5,860 bases of DNA from a virus (Duplodnaviria; Heunggongvirae; Uroviricota; Caudoviricetes). Of the stretch, positions 2 to 5,567 are shown in pieces (within the stretch, counting starts at the first letter, position 1; each line of letters starts with the position of its first letter). The DNA is taken from the IMG/VR virus record IMGVR_UViG_3300029121_000098. One strand, 5' to 3'. Both the position numbers and the translations under genes were made by a program. Below the pieces are notes generated by a model. It saw only the letters and a list, made by a program, of their open reading frames with translations, made no database searches and was not told where the DNA came from.

Positions 2-157
2 ATGAAGCAGCAAAAGGCGATGTTAATCGCCCTGATCGTCATCTGTTTAACCGTCATAGTGACGGCACTGGTAACGAGGAAAGACCTCTGCGAGGTACGA
101 ATCCGAACCGGCCAGACGGAGGTCGCTGTCTTCACAGCTTACGAACCTGAGGAGTAA
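2..157 (+). CDS. hokD: Hok/Gef-family type I membrane toxin, 51 aa (HokD/RelF-like)
   Basis: ATG at 2, TAA at 155-157. Translation MKQQKAMLIALIVICLTVIVTALVTRKDLCEVRIRTGQTEVAVFTAYEPEE: one hydrophobic helix plus a charged tail with a conserved Cys, matching the Hok/Gef family as I recall it. Absent from the ORF track because it is short. The mok/sok partners would lie upstream, outside the window. Confidence 0.88.
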   Translation: MKQQKAMLIALIVICLTVIVTALVTRKDLCEVRIRTGQTEVAVFTAYEPEE

Positions 158-971: not shown

Positions 972-2021
972 GTGCGGGTATTACTTCGACCTGTTCTGGT
1001 ACCGGAACTCGGGCTGGTGGTCGTTAAGCCGGGCCGTGAATCCATGCCGGTATTCCACAATACCCGGGTACTGGTGGAGCCGGAACCGAAAAGCATGCGT
1101 AATCTGCCGTCCGGGGTCGTTCCTGCCGTTCGCCAGCCGCTGGTGGAAGACAAAACATTGCTGCCGTTTTTCAGTAACGCACGGGTAATTCGTGCTGCTG
1201 GTGGTGCTGGTGCATTGTCTGACTGGCTGTTGCGCCATATTAAATCCTGCCAGTGGCCACACGGCGATTATCATCACAGCGAAACCGTTATTCACCGTTA
1301 TGGTACCGGCGCAATGGTGTTGTGCTGGCACTGCGACAACCAGCTGTGTGACCAGACATCCGAATCACTCGAGCAGCTTGCTCATCAAAACCTGTCAGCA
1401 TGGATGATTGACGTCATCGGTCACGCAATAAGCGGTACGCAGGAGCGTGAATTATCTCTGGCTGAATTATCCTGGTGGGCGGTCCGCAATCAGGTGGCGG
1501 ACGCGCTACCGGAAGCGGTATTACGTCGTTCGCTGGGGTTGCGTGCGGAAAAAATCCGCTCAATGTACCGTGAAAGCGACATCGTACCGGGAGAGCAGAC
1601 CGCCACCAGCATACTGAAACAGCGCACAAAAAATCTTGCGCCGCTGCCTCACGCCCACCAGCAACAGAACCCACCACAGGAAAAGACGGTGGTCAGCATT
1701 GCCGTTGATCCTGAGTCTCCGGAATCTTTTATGAAACGACCTAAACGTCGCCGCTGGGTTAACGAGAAATACACACGCTGGGTGAAGACACAGCCGTGTG
1801 CGTGTTGTGGTAAGCCAGCCGACGATCCCCATCACCTGATTGGTCATGGTCAGGGCGGAATGGGGACAAAATCTCACGATATTTTCACGCTACCGCTGTG
1901 TCGGGAGCATCACAACGAGCTTCATGCGGATCCGCTGGCGTTCGAAGAAAAGCATGGTTCTCAGGTTGATTTAATTTTTCGTTTTCTTGATCACGCCTTT
2001 GCAACTGGCGTGCTTGGGTAA
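972..2021 (+). CDS. ydfU: YdfU-like prophage protein, 349 aa, with C-terminal HNH-like Cys/His motif
   Basis: GTG start preceded by GGAGG. Length and N-terminus (MRVLLRPVLVPELGLVV...) match Qin prophage YdfU as I recall it. C-terminal segment CACCGKPADDPHHLIGHGQGGMGTKSHDIFTLPLCREHHNELH resembles a zinc-binding HNH-type nuclease motif. Confidence 0.8.
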   Translation: MRVLLRPVLVPELGLVVVKPGRESMPVFHNTRVLVEPEPKSMRNLPSGVVPAVRQPLVEDKTLLPFFSNARVIRAAGGAGALSDWLLRHIKSCQWPHGDYHHSETVIHRYGTGAMVLCWHCDNQLCDQTSESLEQLAHQNLSAWMIDVIGHAISGTQERELSLAELSWWAVRNQVADALPEAVLRRSLGLRAEKIRSMYRESDIVPGEQTATSILKQRTKNLAPLPHAHQQQNPPQEKTVVSIAVDPESPESFMKRPKRRRWVNEKYTRWVKTQPCACCGKPADDPHHLIGHGQGGMGTKSHDIFTLPLCREHHNELHADPLAFEEKHGSQVDLIFRFLDHAFATGVLG

Positions 2022-2033
2022 AAGAGGTGACTG

Positions 2034-2408
2034 ATGCTCATAGATTTGGTTTTACCTTACCCGCCGACGGTGAACACTTACTGGCGACGCCGTGGCAGCA
2101 CATATTTTATCTCGGAGGAGGGAAAGCGTTATCGCCGGGCTGTGGCGCTTATTGTTCGCCAGCAGCGGCTGAAATTAAGCCTGTCCGGAAGGCTGGCGAT
2201 AAAGGTGATTGCAGAGCCACCGGATAAGCGTCGTCGCGACCTGGACAATATCCTGAAAGCACCGCTGGATGCGCTGACGCATGCGGGAGTGTTAATGGAC
2301 GATGAGCAGTTTGATGAAATCAATATCGTTCGTGGTCAGCCAGTATCTGGTGGACGTATGGGGGTGAAGATTTACCCCATAATGCATGAAGAGCAGGTCA
2401 AAAAATGA
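2034..2408 (+). CDS. rusA: RusA-family crossover junction endodeoxyribonuclease (Holliday junction resolvase), 124 aa
   Basis: AGAGGTG Shine-Dalgarno upstream. The acidic core PDKRRRDLDNILKAPLDALTHAGVLMDDEQ aligns with the [30 protein letters not shown] region of E. coli RusA as recalled. Position between the nin-like genes and Q is typical. Confidence 0.82.
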   Translation: MLIDLVLPYPPTVNTYWRRRGSTYFISEEGKRYRRAVALIVRQQRLKLSLSGRLAIKVIAEPPDKRRRDLDNILKAPLDALTHAGVLMDDEQFDEINIVRGQPVSGGRMGVKIYPIMHEEQVKK

Positions 2409-3226
2409 AACTGGAAGATTTACCGAAATACTACTCCCCAAAATCCCCTTGCCTGACCGATGCATCGGCTTCAACGTCAAAAGATGCGCTGAGTATCACT
2501 GATGTGATGGCCGCGCAGGGCATGACACAGAATCGGGCTGAGATGGGGTTTTCTGCGTTCCTGGGGAAAATGGGCATCAGTATGAATGACAGGGCACGGG
2601 CAACAGAATTACTGGCAGATTATGCACTCAGTCGGTGCGATCGTGTGGCGGCGTTGAGAAAACTTCCGGCAGAAATAAAACCGGTAGTGATGCGCATTAT
2701 GGCTTCGTACGCTTTTGAGGATTATGCCCGCAGCGCAGCGAGTAAAAAGCAGTGCCCTTGTTGCTATGGGGAAAAATTTATTGAAAGCGTAGTTTTTACA
2801 AACAAGGTCCAGTATCCGGATGGTAAGCCGCCGGTATGGGCAAAGTGTACGAAAGGTGTGTATCCGTCTTACTGGGAAGAATGGAAAAAAGTCAGGGAGG
2901 TGGTAAAAGTTGCCTGTCCGGAGTGTGGCGGAAAGGGTGAGGTTTCCACCGTCTGTAAGGATTGCCGTGGGCGTGGTGTCGCCATTCACCGTGAAGAGTC
3001 GGTAAAACGTGGTATGCCTGTTATCAGAGACTGCCAGCGTTGTGGTGGTCGTGGCTATGAAAGACTACCATCAACGGAGGCATTTAATGCTATATGCGAG
3101 GTGACAAACCAGATAACACGCGCGTCATGGGAAAAAACAGTTAAGAAATTCTATGATGCGCTGGTGACCCGGTTTGATATTGAAGAAGCATGGGCTGAGC
3201 GGCAGTTAAAAAAGGTAACTAGGTAA
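2405..3226 (+). CDS. Q: Lambda-type late antiterminator Q, 273 aa, with an enlarged Cys-rich insertion
   Basis: ATGA overlap with the rusA stop. Blocks KYYSPKSP, TDVMAAQGMTQNRAEMGFSAFLGK, ASYAFEDYARSAA, CQRCGGRGYERLP and SWEKTVKKFYDALV...VTR align with lambda Q (KFHSPKSP, TDVMAAMGMAQSQAGFGMAAFCGK, ATFAYADYCRSAA, CGRCKGVGYSRMP, TWSRTVKPLYDALV...VTR) as I recall it. Sits immediately upstream of a pR'-like promoter. Confidence 0.88.
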   Translation: MKLEDLPKYYSPKSPCLTDASASTSKDALSITDVMAAQGMTQNRAEMGFSAFLGKMGISMNDRARATELLADYALSRCDRVAALRKLPAEIKPVVMRIMASYAFEDYARSAASKKQCPCCYGEKFIESVVFTNKVQYPDGKPPVWAKCTKGVYPSYWEEWKKVREVVKVACPECGGKGEVSTVCKDCRGRGVAIHREESVKRGMPVIRDCQRCGGRGYERLPSTEAFNAICEVTNQITRASWEKTVKKFYDALVTRFDIEEAWAERQLKKVTR

Positions 3227-3231
3227 CAAGG

Positions 3232-3275
3232 TTGATTTTTCCGGAATCTGTGGTAAATTCATCATAATGATGGGC
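3232..3275 (+). promoter_or_regulatory. pR'-like late promoter with a promoter-proximal sigma70 pause element (Q engagement region)
   Basis: -35 TTGATT (3232-3237), 16-nt spacer, -10 TAAATT (3254-3259), identical to the lambda pR' -10 as I recall it. It is followed by CATCATAATGATGGG, a -10-like repeat resembling the lambda pause-inducing ACGATGGG segment. Confidence 0.55.
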
Positions 3276-3307
3276 TTTTTATGCCTGACGTTAGAAGAGT
3301 TTCTACA

Positions 3308-3332
3308 ACCCGCCGCCGAGCGGGTTTTTTAT
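3308..3332 (+). terminator. tR'-like rho-independent terminator
   Basis: ACCCGC-CGCCGA-GCGGGT hairpin followed by TTTTTTATT, about 45-65 nt downstream of the predicted start site. Confidence 0.6.
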
Positions 3333-3369
3333 TGCGGAATTAATTACGGACCGTTATTATTCTGCTCCC

Positions 3370-3445
3370 GGCCCTTTAGCTCAGTGGTGAGAGCGAGCGA
3401 CTCATAATCGCCAGGTCGCTGGTTCAAATCCAGCAAGGGCCACCA
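3370..3445 (+). tRNA. ileZ: tRNA-Ile2 (anticodon CAT, presumably lysidine-modified to read AUA)
   Basis: Cloverleaf fits: acceptor GGCCCTT/AAGGGCC, D-arm GCTC...GAGC, anticodon loop CTCATAA, T-arm CGCTGG-TTCAAAT-CCAGC, encoded CCA. Near-identical to E. coli ileX as recalled; the C4:G69/C5:G68 acceptor pairs fit an Ile2 (TilS substrate) rather than an elongator Met. Confidence 0.85.
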
Positions 3446-3528: not shown

Positions 3529-3605
3529 TCGTTGTTAGCTCAGCCGGACAGAGCAATTGCCTTCTAAGCAATCGGTCACTGGTTCGAATCCAGTACAGCG
3601 CGCCA
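3529..3605 (+). tRNA. argO: tRNA-Arg (anticodon UCU, reads AGA)
   Basis: D-arm GCTC-AGCCGGACA-GAGC, anticodon stem ATTGC/GCAAT with loop CTTCTAA, T-arm ACTGG-TTCGAAT-CCAGT, encoded CCA. The 1:72 acceptor pair is T:C in my fold, so the 5' boundary is uncertain by 1-2 nt. Confidence 0.75.
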
Positions 3606-4069: not shown

Positions 4070-4533
4070 ATACATATCTGGATTATCACCTGTTACGGTA
4101 AAAAGTGATTGCTTACTGTTTTTGTGAATGGCATTGCAGCAGCCGGATAATATCAGTGCTGGCTGACGGTGTGCTGGTGGCGGGTGTGGTGGTTGTTGCT
4201 TTCCCGTTGCTGAAAAAGAAAACGCCAGACTGTTAGCCGGGTATCAGTTAGCGGGAGAAATTTTTAAATACTTCACAATTCAGGCGGTTGACTGTTCTCT
4301 GGTTTGCGGGGAGTTTGTTAAAAGAAACTGGCATGGTGAATCCCCCTGTGCGGAGGGGCAATCAGCGAGTAGGTATATGGGATAATCGCGGATTCAGGTG
4401 CTGGTACTGAATTCACCCGGCACCATGCACTTCAATAGATTCTCTCCACATTATGGATATTCTTTCAGAATATCCCACGCAGACTTTGTGTAAATGTTAA
4501 CAAATGTGCGTTTTATTTGATCTGATTCGCTGT

Positions 4534-4592: not shown

Positions 4593-5021
4593 ATGGGTTT
4601 TCGTAGCGCATCAATTCTTACGTTGATTATTAGTGGGATTATTATCGGGTGCACTGATGCTGTATCGACAAATTATCATGACCGTACATCATATTACTCC
4701 GATAAAGCAATAGAGACACAGTATGTGAGTTCATCTGAACGTACTTCTGATGTTAGTGAGGATATCCGTCTGTATGCCCATCAAATCAAGAGCGCCATCG
4801 AAAAACAGTTCGGGGATGCGAGTAAGTATTCAGGAAAAGAGTGTACACTGAGAATGCATATGGCCCCGAATGGCCTTCTACTGGAGGTTAAAAGAGAAAG
4901 TGGAGACCTCGATTTATGTCGTGAAGCGATGAATGCGATAAAGAATGCTGATATACCTGCCCCCCCTTCGCCGGAAGTATATAAAGTATTTCAAAATGGG
5001 GTGCTGGATTTTAAACCCTGA
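4593..5021 (+). CDS. Lipoprotein with C-terminal TolA domain III-like fold, 142 aa
   Basis: GAGGA Shine-Dalgarno before the ATG. Signal peptide MGFRSASILTLIISGIIIG with lipobox Cys (IIGC), then a Ser/Thr/Tyr-rich linker. The C-terminus IKSAIEKQFGDASKYSGKECTLRMHMAPNGLLLEVKRESGDLDLCREAMNAIKNADIPAPPSPEVYKVFQNGVLDFKP aligns almost residue for residue with the E. coli TolA C-terminus (QIKSAIESKFYDASSYAGKTCTLRIKLAPDGMLLDIKPEGGDPALCQAALAAAKLAKIPKPPSQAVYEVFKNAPLDFKP) as I recall it, including both cysteines. Confidence 0.8.
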   Translation: MGFRSASILTLIISGIIIGCTDAVSTNYHDRTSYYSDKAIETQYVSSSERTSDVSEDIRLYAHQIKSAIEKQFGDASKYSGKECTLRMHMAPNGLLLEVKRESGDLDLCREAMNAIKNADIPAPPSPEVYKVFQNGVLDFKP

Positions 5022-5171: not shown

Positions 5172-5567
5172 GTGGGATTAAAGAAAATCGTTATGTTGAC
5201 TTTTTGGGTCGGTTTTGTTGCGGGATGCACACCTTTACACCCTTCAGATTGCCACAAAACTACTGCTACAGGTAGTTGCAGTTCAGGACGCTGGGATGAT
5301 CAGGATGAATGGGGGGCGCAAGCGCGGGGAATCAGAGCTGCAATTAATGCCAAACTTGATGAGCCGCATAACTGGAAAGGGAAAAAATGCAGGTTGCATA
5401 TGGAATTCTCTCAGGATGGCACGGCGTTAAAAATATCTACCAGTAATGGTGATAAAGCCTATTGCGAAGCGATAAAGTCCGCAGCTCATAAAGCCAAATT
5501 TCCGGCCTTCAACAATCCGGAAGTCTACAGAGATTTTCAGAAATCTGGCTTTGACATGCGAGGTTAG
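5172..5567 (+). CDS. Second, divergent TolA domain III-like lipoprotein (paralogue), 131 aa
   Basis: GTG start 6 nt after a GAGGAG Shine-Dalgarno. Signal peptide MGLKKIVMLTFWVGFVAG with lipobox Cys (VAGC). C-terminus GIRAAINAKL...GKKCRLHMEFSQDGTALKISTSNGDKAYCEAIKSAAHKAKFPAFNNPEVYRDFQ aligns with the upstream paralogue and with TolA domain III, keeping both cysteines. Confidence 0.75.
   Translation: MGLKKIVMLTFWVGFVAGCTPLHPSDCHKTTATGSCSSGRWDDQDEWGAQARGIRAAINAKLDEPHNWKGKKCRLHMEFSQDGTALKISTSNGDKAYCEAIKSAAHKAKFPAFNNPEVYRDFQKSGFDMRG

What the first reader, a model, noticed from the sequence alone, without database searches (positions are those of the whole stretch)
2753..3056. Lambda-type Q with an expanded four-CxxC region
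Lambda Q (about 207 aa) has a single Cys4 zinc site. This Q is 273 aa, and the extra length falls in the zinc region, which carries four CxxC pairs (CPCCYGEKF, CPECGGKG, CKDCRGRG, CQRCGGRG). Three of them fit the CxxCxGxG pattern of DnaJ-type zinc fingers. That suggests a duplicated or two-site zinc module inserted in the domain that contacts RNA polymerase and the Q-binding element DNA.
Basis: partly seen in the sequence, partly recalled or inferred. Interest (0 to 1): 0.5.

Follow-up and report, generated by a model that had tools for sequence, protein, structure and literature searches.

The report
Lambda-family Q antiterminator, common two-zinc form
The gene is an ordinary, widely distributed lambda-family Q late-gene antiterminator of an E. 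coli lambdoid prophage, and its four CxxC pairs are the usual form in this family (phi80 Q and the K-12 Qin Q have them too), while lambda's own Q is the reduced form.

Summary

It is not unusual. All eight cysteines are invariant in 30 divergent long-form representatives (23-48% identical to the window protein). Long forms are about 29 of 35 full-length 50%-identity clusters and about half of the phage records. They include phi80 Q and E. coli K-12 Qin YdfT/QuuQ. This gene occurs at 80% or more nucleotide identity in 2495 of 5426 complete E. coli genomes. The whole window is 97.8% identical to phage mEp460_ev081. Short, lambda-like forms sit in at least four places on a crude tree, so lambda looks reduced rather than this protein expanded.

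AlphaFold2 (pLDDT 86) places a 12+12-residue beta-hairpin between motifs 1 and 2. A profile comparison aligns that module to the lambda-type ribbon (94%). The best reading is two tandem zinc ribbons and a second structural zinc. What the second ribbon does is unknown. Interest is low.

The parts
2405..3226 (+). Q gene, a 273-aa lambda-family late-gene antiterminator. Its ATG overlaps the RusA stop codon (ATGA).
   Evidence: ORF list. PF03589 at 182 bits against a cutoff of 26.7. PHROG 127 'anti-termination protein Q-like', E 5e-110. Lambda Q PDB chains, E 2e-40. RefSeq annotates the same 822-nt CDS as 'antitermination protein'.
2405..2743 (+). Residues 1-113. These are the N-terminal segment, which forms the RNA-exit-channel torus in lambda Q, and the first half of the helical body. 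The stretch ends in the conserved S110-A111-A112, which corresponds to the lambda residues that touch the RNAP beta' zinc-binding domain.
   Evidence: Aligns collinearly to lambda Q 1-113 at 84 bits. The AF2 model best matches the engaged form 7ubn_Q. Contact residues are taken from PMC9388147. S110 and A111 are at least 90% conserved.
2744..2950 (+). The extra module absent from lambda Q (residues 114-182). It comprises motif 1 (C117xxC120, nt 2753-2764), a predicted beta-hairpin (strands 125-136 and 159-170), motif 2 (C171xxC174-GGKG, nt 2915-2938) and a 9-residue linker. It is a predicted second zinc ribbon.
   Evidence: Gap in the lambda alignment. C117, C120, C171 and C174 are invariant in 30 of 30 long-form representatives and in all 89 sequences of A2. 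AF2 secondary structure, pLDDT about 78-86, reproduced on the isolated region. hhalign against the lambda-type ribbon, 94% probability.
2951..3064 (+). Lambda-type zinc-ribbon arm (residues 183-220). It comprises motif 3 (C184xxC187-RGRG), a strand-helix-strand hairpin and motif 4 (C210xxC213-GGRG). It is equivalent to lambda C118, C121, C144 and C147.
   Evidence: Aligned to lambda 117-152. C184, C187, C210 and C213 are invariant in all 30 long-form representatives; C210 and C213 are also invariant across all 34 rows of A1, short forms included. AF2 gives E192-194, H196-202 and E207-209.
3065..3223 (+). Second half of the body (residues 221-273), corresponding to the helix-turn-helix and C-terminal helix of lambda Q.
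3232..3274 (+). Candidate late promoter pR' with the Q-loading site: -35 TTGATT (3232-3237), a 16-nt spacer that would hold the Q-binding element (3238-3253), -10 TAAATT (3254-3259), 6 nt, then a -10-like pause element AATGAT (3266-3271) followed by GGG.
   Evidence: Read from the sequence. It aligns in register with pR' of lambda (TAAATT-6-AACGATGGG) and K-12 Qin; the annotated phi80 pR' aligns through its -35 and -10, but its AACGCTGGG element needs a 7-column gap there. The consensus scan did not call it, because it matches only 8 of 12 positions.
3307..3335 (+). Intrinsic terminator (tR'-like) about 40 nt downstream of the pause site. This is the terminator Q would override.
   Evidence: Terminator scan: 7-bp stem with 5 GC pairs, then a T-run. 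A similar hairpin aligns in K-12 Qin.

Best explanation
This is a standard Q-lambda-family (PF03589) late-gene antiterminator of an E. coli lambdoid prophage, with the family's common 'long' architecture. The helical body, the N-terminal segment and the zinc-ribbon arm known from lambda Q are all present. By homology the protein should bind a Q-binding element inside pR' (3232-3274), load onto RNA polymerase paused at the -10-like element, and carry it through the terminator at 3307-3335. That step is inferred.

Between body helix 2 and the lambda-type ribbon sits a second, tandemly duplicated zinc ribbon. Motif 1 (C117/C120) and motif 2 (C171/C174) lie at the base of a long beta-hairpin and most likely bind a second structural Zn2+. 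Motifs 3 and 4 (C184/C187, C210/C213) form the lambda-type site. This pairing is predicted and was not measured.

The second ribbon emerges three residues after the conserved S110-A111-A112, which corresponds to lambda residues that contact the RNAP beta' zinc-binding domain. My best guess is that it acts as a second arm adding a contact in the loading or loaded complex, more likely with a host component than with phage DNA. This last step is weakly supported. Lambda's one-site Q is a reduced derivative of this form.
For: Family membership:
- PF03589 scores 182 bits.
- phmmer to lambda Q chains gives E 2e-40, collinear except for the 69-residue gap.

Context:
- The pR' / pause element / terminator architecture aligns with lambda and Qin, and largely with phi80.
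- In a near-identical locus, lysis genes lie downstream.
- The window is 97.8% identical over 99% of its length to phage mEp460_ev081.

Second zinc site:
- All 8 motif cysteines are invariant in 30 of 30 long-form 50%-identity representatives and in all 89 rows of A2. The 5 non-motif cysteines are not conserved.
- The spacer between motifs 1 and 2 varies widely in length, so that the whole extra module ranges from 29 to 78 residues across representatives, while the cysteines stay fixed.
- AF2 gives equal 12-residue strands 125-136 and 159-170 between motifs 1 and 2, both in the full-length model and in the isolated region.
- hhalign aligns motif 1 to motif 3 and motif 2 to motif 4 (94% probability, E 1.3e-7).
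- Motifs 1 and 2 are lost together in every short form.

Commonness and direction of change.

Host-partner guess: hairpin A is the best-conserved region between this Q and phi80 Q (59% against 41% overall and 23% in the C-terminal body that carries the HTH). It is unrelated in most other long forms. The insertion point lies next to the residues that contact the beta' zinc-binding domain in lambda (PMC9388147).
Against: - No model coordinates were available, so Cys-Cys distances and the pairing (1+2 / 3+4 against 1+4 / 2+3) were not measured.
- AF2 does not model metal.
- The hhalign score rests largely on the Cys and Gly motifs.
- The tree is neighbour-joining on p-distances with a midpoint root.
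- Hairpin A varies greatly in length and sequence across Qs that use the same host RNAP. That argues against one universal conserved partner, and the module is dispensable in lambda, P22 and other short forms.
- No paper in the held library describes the module, and Guo & Roberts 2004 on phi80 Q could not be read.
Confidence: 0.7

Rival explanations
1. The four motifs form a nested, DnaJ-type two-zinc domain. Motifs 1+4 would form one site and motifs 2+3 the other, as in the DnaJ cysteine-rich domain. The domain would then be a single elongated two-centre finger rather than two tandem ribbons.
For: - The Pfam DnaJ_CXXCXGXG model aligns motifs 2-3-4 to its positions 1-52. It scores 28.8 bits on the whole protein, 33.6 bits on residues 114-222 alone, and 35.4 bits on K-12 Qin Q, against a cutoff of 32.7.
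- The NCBIfam anti-TRAP model aligns residues 169-193, that is motifs 2+3 with a 9-residue spacer like anti-TRAP's single site.
- The best non-Q structural neighbours are DnaJA2, DnaJ and anti-TRAP.
- Motif 1 sits at the same distance from the SAA motif as lambda's first knuckle.
- One representative (P0190) seems to keep only motifs 2 and 4.
Against: - Lambda Q's solved site is formed by the equivalents of motifs 3+4.
- Short forms arose repeatedly by removing exactly motifs 1+2.
- The AF2 hairpin 125-136 / 159-170 brings motifs 1 and 2 together.
- hhalign pairs module 1-2 with module 3-4.
Confidence: 0.2
2. The extra module is a tolerated remnant of duplication with no functional role. The cysteines might bind no additional metal, or only stabilise a dispensable loop.
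For: - Short forms without the module (lambda, P22, HK620-type) are fully functional Qs and make up about half of the phage records.
- The hairpin is the most variable part of the protein across the family, 0-26% identical to the window in most representatives.
Against: - All four module cysteines are invariant in 30 lineages that are only 23-48% identical overall, while non-motif cysteines drift.
- The G-x-G residues of motif 2 are also conserved.
- The phi80-type hairpin is more conserved than the rest of the protein.
- The long form persists in most clusters.
Confidence: 0.08
3. The second arm is a DNA-specificity element that reads extra bases of the Q-binding element or DNA upstream of -35, and so sets which pR' each long Q recognises.
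For: - Lambda's own arm contacts positions 11-13 of the Q-binding element.
- Hairpin A comes in distinct cassettes across the family.
- The window and phi80, which share the hairpin type, have similar spacer sequences, TTCCGGAA and TCGCGGAA.
Against: - Promoter geometry (-35, 16-17 nt, -10, 6 nt, pause element) is the same for long-form Qs (window, Qin) and the short-form lambda Q, and similar for phi80.
- In the window the Q stop codon lies 5 nt from -35, so no dedicated upstream element is evident.
- The hairpin carries only about +3 net charge (my count from the sequence).
- No covariation test could be completed.
Confidence: 0.15

Closest known systems
Bacteriophage lambda Q (Q-lambda; PDB 4MO1, 7UBJ-7UBN)
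   Same: Same Pfam family (PF03589). The N-terminal segment, helical body, zinc-ribbon arm and C-terminal HTH region are collinear. The SAA motif that contacts the beta' zinc-binding domain is conserved. Both sit upstream of a pR' with a -10-like pause element and a terminator.
   Different: Lambda Q is 207 aa with one Cys4 site. It has three residues (PGA) where this protein has the 69-residue module with motifs 1 and 2. Identity over the full-length tblastn alignment, gap included, is about 29%.
Phage phi80 Q (gp17, 269 aa), an experimentally studied Q (Guo & Roberts 2004, J Bacteriol 186:3599; cited in PMC9388147 but not readable here)
   Same: Same long architecture with four Cys motifs and the same hairpin-A cassette (59% identity in the hairpin, 41% overall). 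Its annotated pR' has a Q site between -35 and -10.
   Different: Motif 3 is CxC (CRCHGKG) rather than CxxC. The C-terminal body is only 23% identical. The upstream neighbours are nin-region genes (ppp, rap, a Lar-family gene) rather than DUF968 and RusA.
E. coli K-12 Qin prophage YdfT/QuuQ (b1559, 250 aa, 'putative antitermination protein Q')
   Same: Four CxxC motifs. The same hokD - rem - ydfU(DUF968) - Q gene order, and an alignable pR'/terminator region.
   Different: The hairpin between motifs 1 and 2 is shorter and unrelated. There is no rusA between ydfU and Q. It passes the Pfam DnaJ_CXXCXGXG cutoff (35.4 bits), whereas the window protein scores 28.8 bits.
DnaJ/Hsp40 cysteine-rich (CXXCXGXG) domain, and B. 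subtilis anti-TRAP
   Same: The CxxCxGxG knuckle sequence pattern. They are also the weak best structural neighbours of the isolated zinc region.

Membership tests
Q-lambda family of lambdoid antiterminators (Pfam PF03589) | Scores above the Pfam PF03589 gathering threshold | tested here: met
   182.1 bits against a cutoff of 26.7, E 2e-54. Lambda, phi80 and Qin Q score 193, 119 and 181 bits in the same scan.
Q-lambda family of lambdoid antiterminators (Pfam PF03589) | Homology in sequence and fold to the solved lambda Q body plus zinc-ribbon arm | tested here: met
   [not shown]
Q-lambda family of lambdoid antiterminators (Pfam PF03589) | Cys4 zinc ribbon equivalent to lambda C118/C121/C144/C147 | tested here: met
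   C184/C187/C210/C213 align to the lambda ligands and are invariant in all 30 long-form representatives; C210/C213 are also invariant in all 34 rows of A1. Metal binding itself was not measured.
Q-lambda family of lambdoid antiterminators (Pfam PF03589) | N-terminal segment of about 60 residues that refolds into the RNA-exit-channel torus | tested here: inconclusive
   Residues 1-60 are about 50% identical to lambda and align without gaps. The model best matches the engaged conformation. Torus formation cannot be shown by sequence.
Q-lambda family of lambdoid antiterminators (Pfam PF03589) | Gene lies immediately upstream of a late promoter with an embedded Q-binding element, a sigma-dependent pause element and a terminator, ahead of the lysis genes | tested here: met
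   TTGATT-16-TAAATT-6-AATGATGGG at 3232-3274 aligns with pR' of lambda, Qin and phi80. Terminator at 3307-3326. essD/rrrQ/rzpQ lie downstream in a locus that is 99.9% identical.
Q-lambda family of lambdoid antiterminators (Pfam PF03589) | Antitermination and antipausing activity on RNAP | not testable with these tools
   Needs in vitro transcription or a reporter assay. Indirect support only: the same Q (98.5% identical) is the only PF03589-type Q found (tblastn) in the genome record of phage mEp460_ev081.
DnaJ-type cysteine-rich zinc-finger domain (Pfam PF00684) | Four CxxCxGxG repeats scoring above the Pfam gathering threshold | tested here: inconclusive
   Three exact repeats plus one CxxCxGxK. 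The whole protein scores 28.8 bits, below the 32.7 cutoff. Residues 114-222 alone score 33.6 bits, and only profile positions 1-52 of 65 are matched.
DnaJ-type cysteine-rich zinc-finger domain (Pfam PF00684) | Nested topology, with Zn1 from motifs 1+4 and Zn2 from motifs 2+3, in a V-shaped hairpin | tested here: not met
   [not shown]
DnaJ-type cysteine-rich zinc-finger domain (Pfam PF00684) | Embedded in an Hsp40 protein (J domain, G/F region, C-terminal domains) | tested here: not met
   No J-domain or DnaJ_C hit. TIGR02349 scores 27.9 bits against a cutoff of 377.
Anti-TRAP (RtpA) | NCBIfam NF058604 / Pfam PF15777 above cutoff | tested here: not met
   [not shown]

The most novel reading that the evidence does not exclude
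The structural model of Q-lambda loading, which was built entirely on the reduced one-ribbon lambda protein, may be incomplete for most of the family. In long Qs such as this one, phi80 Q and Qin QuuQ, the second zinc-ribbon arm would make an additional specific contact in the loading or loaded complex. The partner could be the RNAP beta' zinc-binding domain or flap, sigma region 4, NusA, or DNA. Such a contact could change loading requirements, for example dependence on NusA, or stability on the elongation complex. The exchangeable hairpin cassettes would tune this.
Probability: 0.35. Interest if true: 0.4.

Novelty: already known. Interest (0 to 1): 0.17.

Why it matters
It matters little for discovery. 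The gene, its family, its genomic role and the four-motif sequence pattern are already in the databases and in well-known phages and prophages.

There is one modest point for people who work on Q. Every solved Q-lambda structure is of the minority, reduced form. Most family members carry a second, strictly conserved Cys4 module, inserted next to residues that correspond to those contacting the RNAP beta' zinc-binding domain in lambda. I found no description of its metal content or function in the literature I could read. The question is answerable with phi80 Q or this Q, but it is not a surprise.

Tried and rejected
1. I first read Pfam's 'two stretches' of PF03589 as the database recognising the insert as a duplicated Antiterm domain. 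That was wrong. Lambda Q itself also gives two stretches, and residues 100-183 alone give no Antiterm hit.

2. A direct BLASTP of the insert against the lambda-type ribbon was only marginal (E 0.007 over 29 residues). The profile comparison was clearer.

3. I tried to use a natural deletion pair, short P0163 against long P0133 (82% identical in shared regions), to compare their pR' sites.
- The search for related loci found nothing in viral contigs.
- It found only two spurious short hits in genome contigs.
- tblastn against the phage collection found no close relative.
So the test could not be done.

4. Guo & Roberts 2004 (PMC415771) and Vorobiev 2014 (PMC3951671) are not held. Full-text searches for Q with CXXCXGXG, for QuuQ, for PF03589, and for zinc ribbon with Q-loading complex found nothing that describes the extra module.

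5. Model coordinates are not exposed, so Cys-Cys distances could not be measured. Pairing was inferred from secondary structure.

6. The sigma-70 scan does not call pR', which matches 8 of 12 positions. I identified the promoter by alignment to lambda, Qin and phi80 instead.

7. An Fe-S or redox-sensing role for the eight cysteines was considered. Nothing supports it beyond cysteine count.

Full report
**What is there**

The window holds a lambdoid-prophage late-regulatory region. In order it contains:
- a Hok-type toxin ORF (2-157)
- a DUF968 protein (972-2021)
- RusA (2034-2408)
- a 273-aa ORF (2405-3226, +)
- two tRNAs (3370-3445 and 3529-3605)
- an STnc100 sRNA match (4302-4482)
- two small proteins with TolA C-terminal domains

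The whole window is 97.8% identical over 99% of its length to phage mEp460_ev081. The 822-nt ORF occurs at 80% or more nucleotide identity in 2495 of 5426 complete E. coli genomes, where RefSeq calls it 'antitermination protein'.

**Checking the observation**

- C117/C120, nt 2753-2764
- C171/C174, nt 2915-2926
- C184/C187, nt 2954-2965
- C210/C213, nt 3032-3043

Three are CxxCxGxG. The first is CxxCxGxK here, but CxxCxGxG in the family consensus. Shuffling the protein gives four or more CxxC with P = 0.0012.

The protein belongs to the Q-lambda family, with PF03589 at 182 bits. Against the lambda Q chains in the PDB, residues 1-113 align with lambda 1-113 and residues 183-273 with lambda 117-207 (E 2e-40). 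The 69 extra residues (114-182) therefore replace lambda's three-residue 'PGA', just before lambda's first zinc ligand. In the lambda structures the body is residues 61-113 plus 153-207, and the zinc-ribbon arm is residues 114-152. Residues 110-112, 117 and 122-126 touch the RNAP beta' zinc-binding domain (PMC9388147). The module thus sits at the junction of body and arm, next to that contact.

**How unusual it is**

It is not unusual.
- An exhaustive HMMER search of 1.84 billion cluster representatives found a small family, with 236 representatives at E <= 1e-3.
- In an alignment of its full-length members, about 29 of 35 carry a motif 1 - spacer - motif 2 module at this position. The whole module ranges from 29 to 78 residues across representatives.
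- In an evenly spaced sample of 40 of the 249 phage records that match the protein, 21 are long and 18 are the 621-nt lambda-like form.
- The long forms include phi80 Q, a Q that has been studied experimentally, ES18 gp73, mEp237 and Q genes of Stx2c phages.
- They also include YdfT/QuuQ of the Qin prophage in E. coli K-12 MG1655.
- All eight motif cysteines are invariant in the 30 long-form representatives, which are 23-48% identical to the window protein, and in an 89-sequence alignment of closer relatives. The five other cysteines of the protein are not conserved.

**Direction of change**

On a neighbour-joining tree of the shared regions, long forms occupy the whole tree. Short forms appear in at least four separate places:
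- the lambda / P0213 pair
- P0182
- P0258
- P0163, which is 82% identical in shared regions to the long P0133 and differs by a clean excision from motif 1 to just before motif 3

The tree is crude. Even so, it suggests the four-motif form is ancestral and lambda's one-site Q is a reduction, the reverse of the 'expanded' framing.

**Structure**

The extra module is predicted as two 12-residue strands (125-136 and 159-170) forming a hairpin between motifs 1 and 2, at pLDDT about 78-86. The same elements appear when residues 108-226 are folded alone (pLDDT 74).

A profile-profile comparison aligns motif 1 with motif 3 and motif 2 with motif 4 (94% probability, E 1.3e-7). Motifs 1 and 2 are always lost together in short forms. 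Taken together, this supports two tandem zinc ribbons, with sites 1+2 and 3+4, that arose by duplication of the ribbon.

I could not obtain coordinates, so the pairing is inferred rather than measured. The DnaJ-like nested alternative (1+4, 2+3) stays open at about 20%. Similarity to DnaJ is limited to the knuckle pattern:
- PF00684 scores 28.8 bits on the whole protein, below the 32.7 cutoff.
- It scores 33.6 bits on the isolated zinc region.
- There is no J domain.

**A correction to my own early reading**

Pfam's 'two stretches' of PF03589 is not recognition of a duplicated insert. Lambda Q gives two stretches as well, and the insert alone gives none.

**How it most likely works**

By homology the protein should act as lambda Q does. 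It would bind a site inside pR', load onto RNA polymerase paused at a -10-like element, and make the polymerase resistant to the downstream terminator.

The DNA signals are present. TTGATT (3232-3237), 16 nt, TAAATT (3254-3259), 6 nt, then AATGAT-GGG (3266-3274) aligns in register with lambda and Qin. The annotated phi80 pR' aligns through its -35 and -10, but its AACGCTGGG element needs a 7-column gap. A terminator follows at 3307-3326 plus a T-run.

The role of the second ribbon is unknown. Its hairpin behaves as an exchangeable cassette. It is the best-conserved region between this Q and phi80 Q (59% against 41% overall and 23% in the HTH-bearing C-terminal body), yet it is unrelated in most other long forms. 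The module emerges three residues after the conserved SAA motif, which corresponds to the lambda residues that contact the beta' zinc-binding domain.

My working guess is an accessory arm that adds a contact with a host component during loading. Confidence for that specific step is low, about 0.35. Rival readings are a DNA-specificity element and a tolerated remnant. Promoter geometry does not differ clearly between long and short Qs, which argues mildly against a need for extra DNA.

**Literature**

The structural papers on lambda Q that I could read do not mention the long forms or a second zinc site. The paper most likely to mention it, Guo & Roberts 2004 on the lambda and phi80 Q proteins, is not held. 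Four further full-text searches found no description. I therefore cannot say whether the module has been commented on in print.

**Verdict**

It is a lambda-type Q with a probable duplicated, two-site zinc region. I rate the novelty as already known and the interest as low.

Noticed in passing
window 3370-3445 and 3529-3605 (+): Two tRNA genes lie directly downstream of the pR' terminator: tRNA-Met(cat) and tRNA-Arg(tct), the rare AGA codon. A 'cat' anticodon could instead belong to a lysidine-modified tRNA-Ile2, which was not tested. In the 99.9%-identical Q locus of strain EC21Z-014 only the tRNA-Met is annotated, so the region downstream of Q is mosaic.
   Followed up: partly
window 4593-5021 and 5172-5567 (+): Two paralogous small proteins (142 and 131 aa). 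Each has a hydrophobic N-terminus and a TolA C-terminal domain (PF06519: 82.6 and 54.6 bits). They lie between Q and the lysis genes and are also present in phage mEp460_ev081. They may be decoys or exclusion factors for TolA-dependent colicins or filamentous phages. This was not examined.
   Followed up: no
window 4302-4482 (+): Rfam match to sRNA STnc100 (RF02076): 84.9 bits against a gathering score of 47, full-length. It lies between the tRNAs and the TolA-like genes.
   Followed up: no
window 2-157 (+): A 51-aa Hok-family toxin ORF (MKQQKAMLIALIVICLTVIVTALVTRKDLCEVRIRTGQTEVAVFTAYEPEE). hokD or mokW is annotated at the corresponding place in related loci.
   Followed up: no
window 972-2021 (+); L007:1568-2617: The DUF968 protein (YdfU-like, with a weak HNH-nuclease match) upstream of RusA is labelled 'Phage antitermination protein Q' in the mEp460_ev081 record. 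That looks like a misannotation: it has no PF03589 hit.
   Followed up: partly
A1 alignment, columns about 200-215 (proteins P0124, P0126, P0129, phi80 Q L001:1501-2310, and others): In roughly two thirds of long-form representatives and in phi80 Q, motif 3 is CxC (CR-CxGxG) rather than CxxC. One representative (P0190) appears to keep only motifs 2 and 4, with a cysteine-less remnant of motif 3 (AAGAG). This suggests that knuckles 2 and 3 are spatially interchangeable.
   Followed up: partly
[not shown]
   Followed up: no
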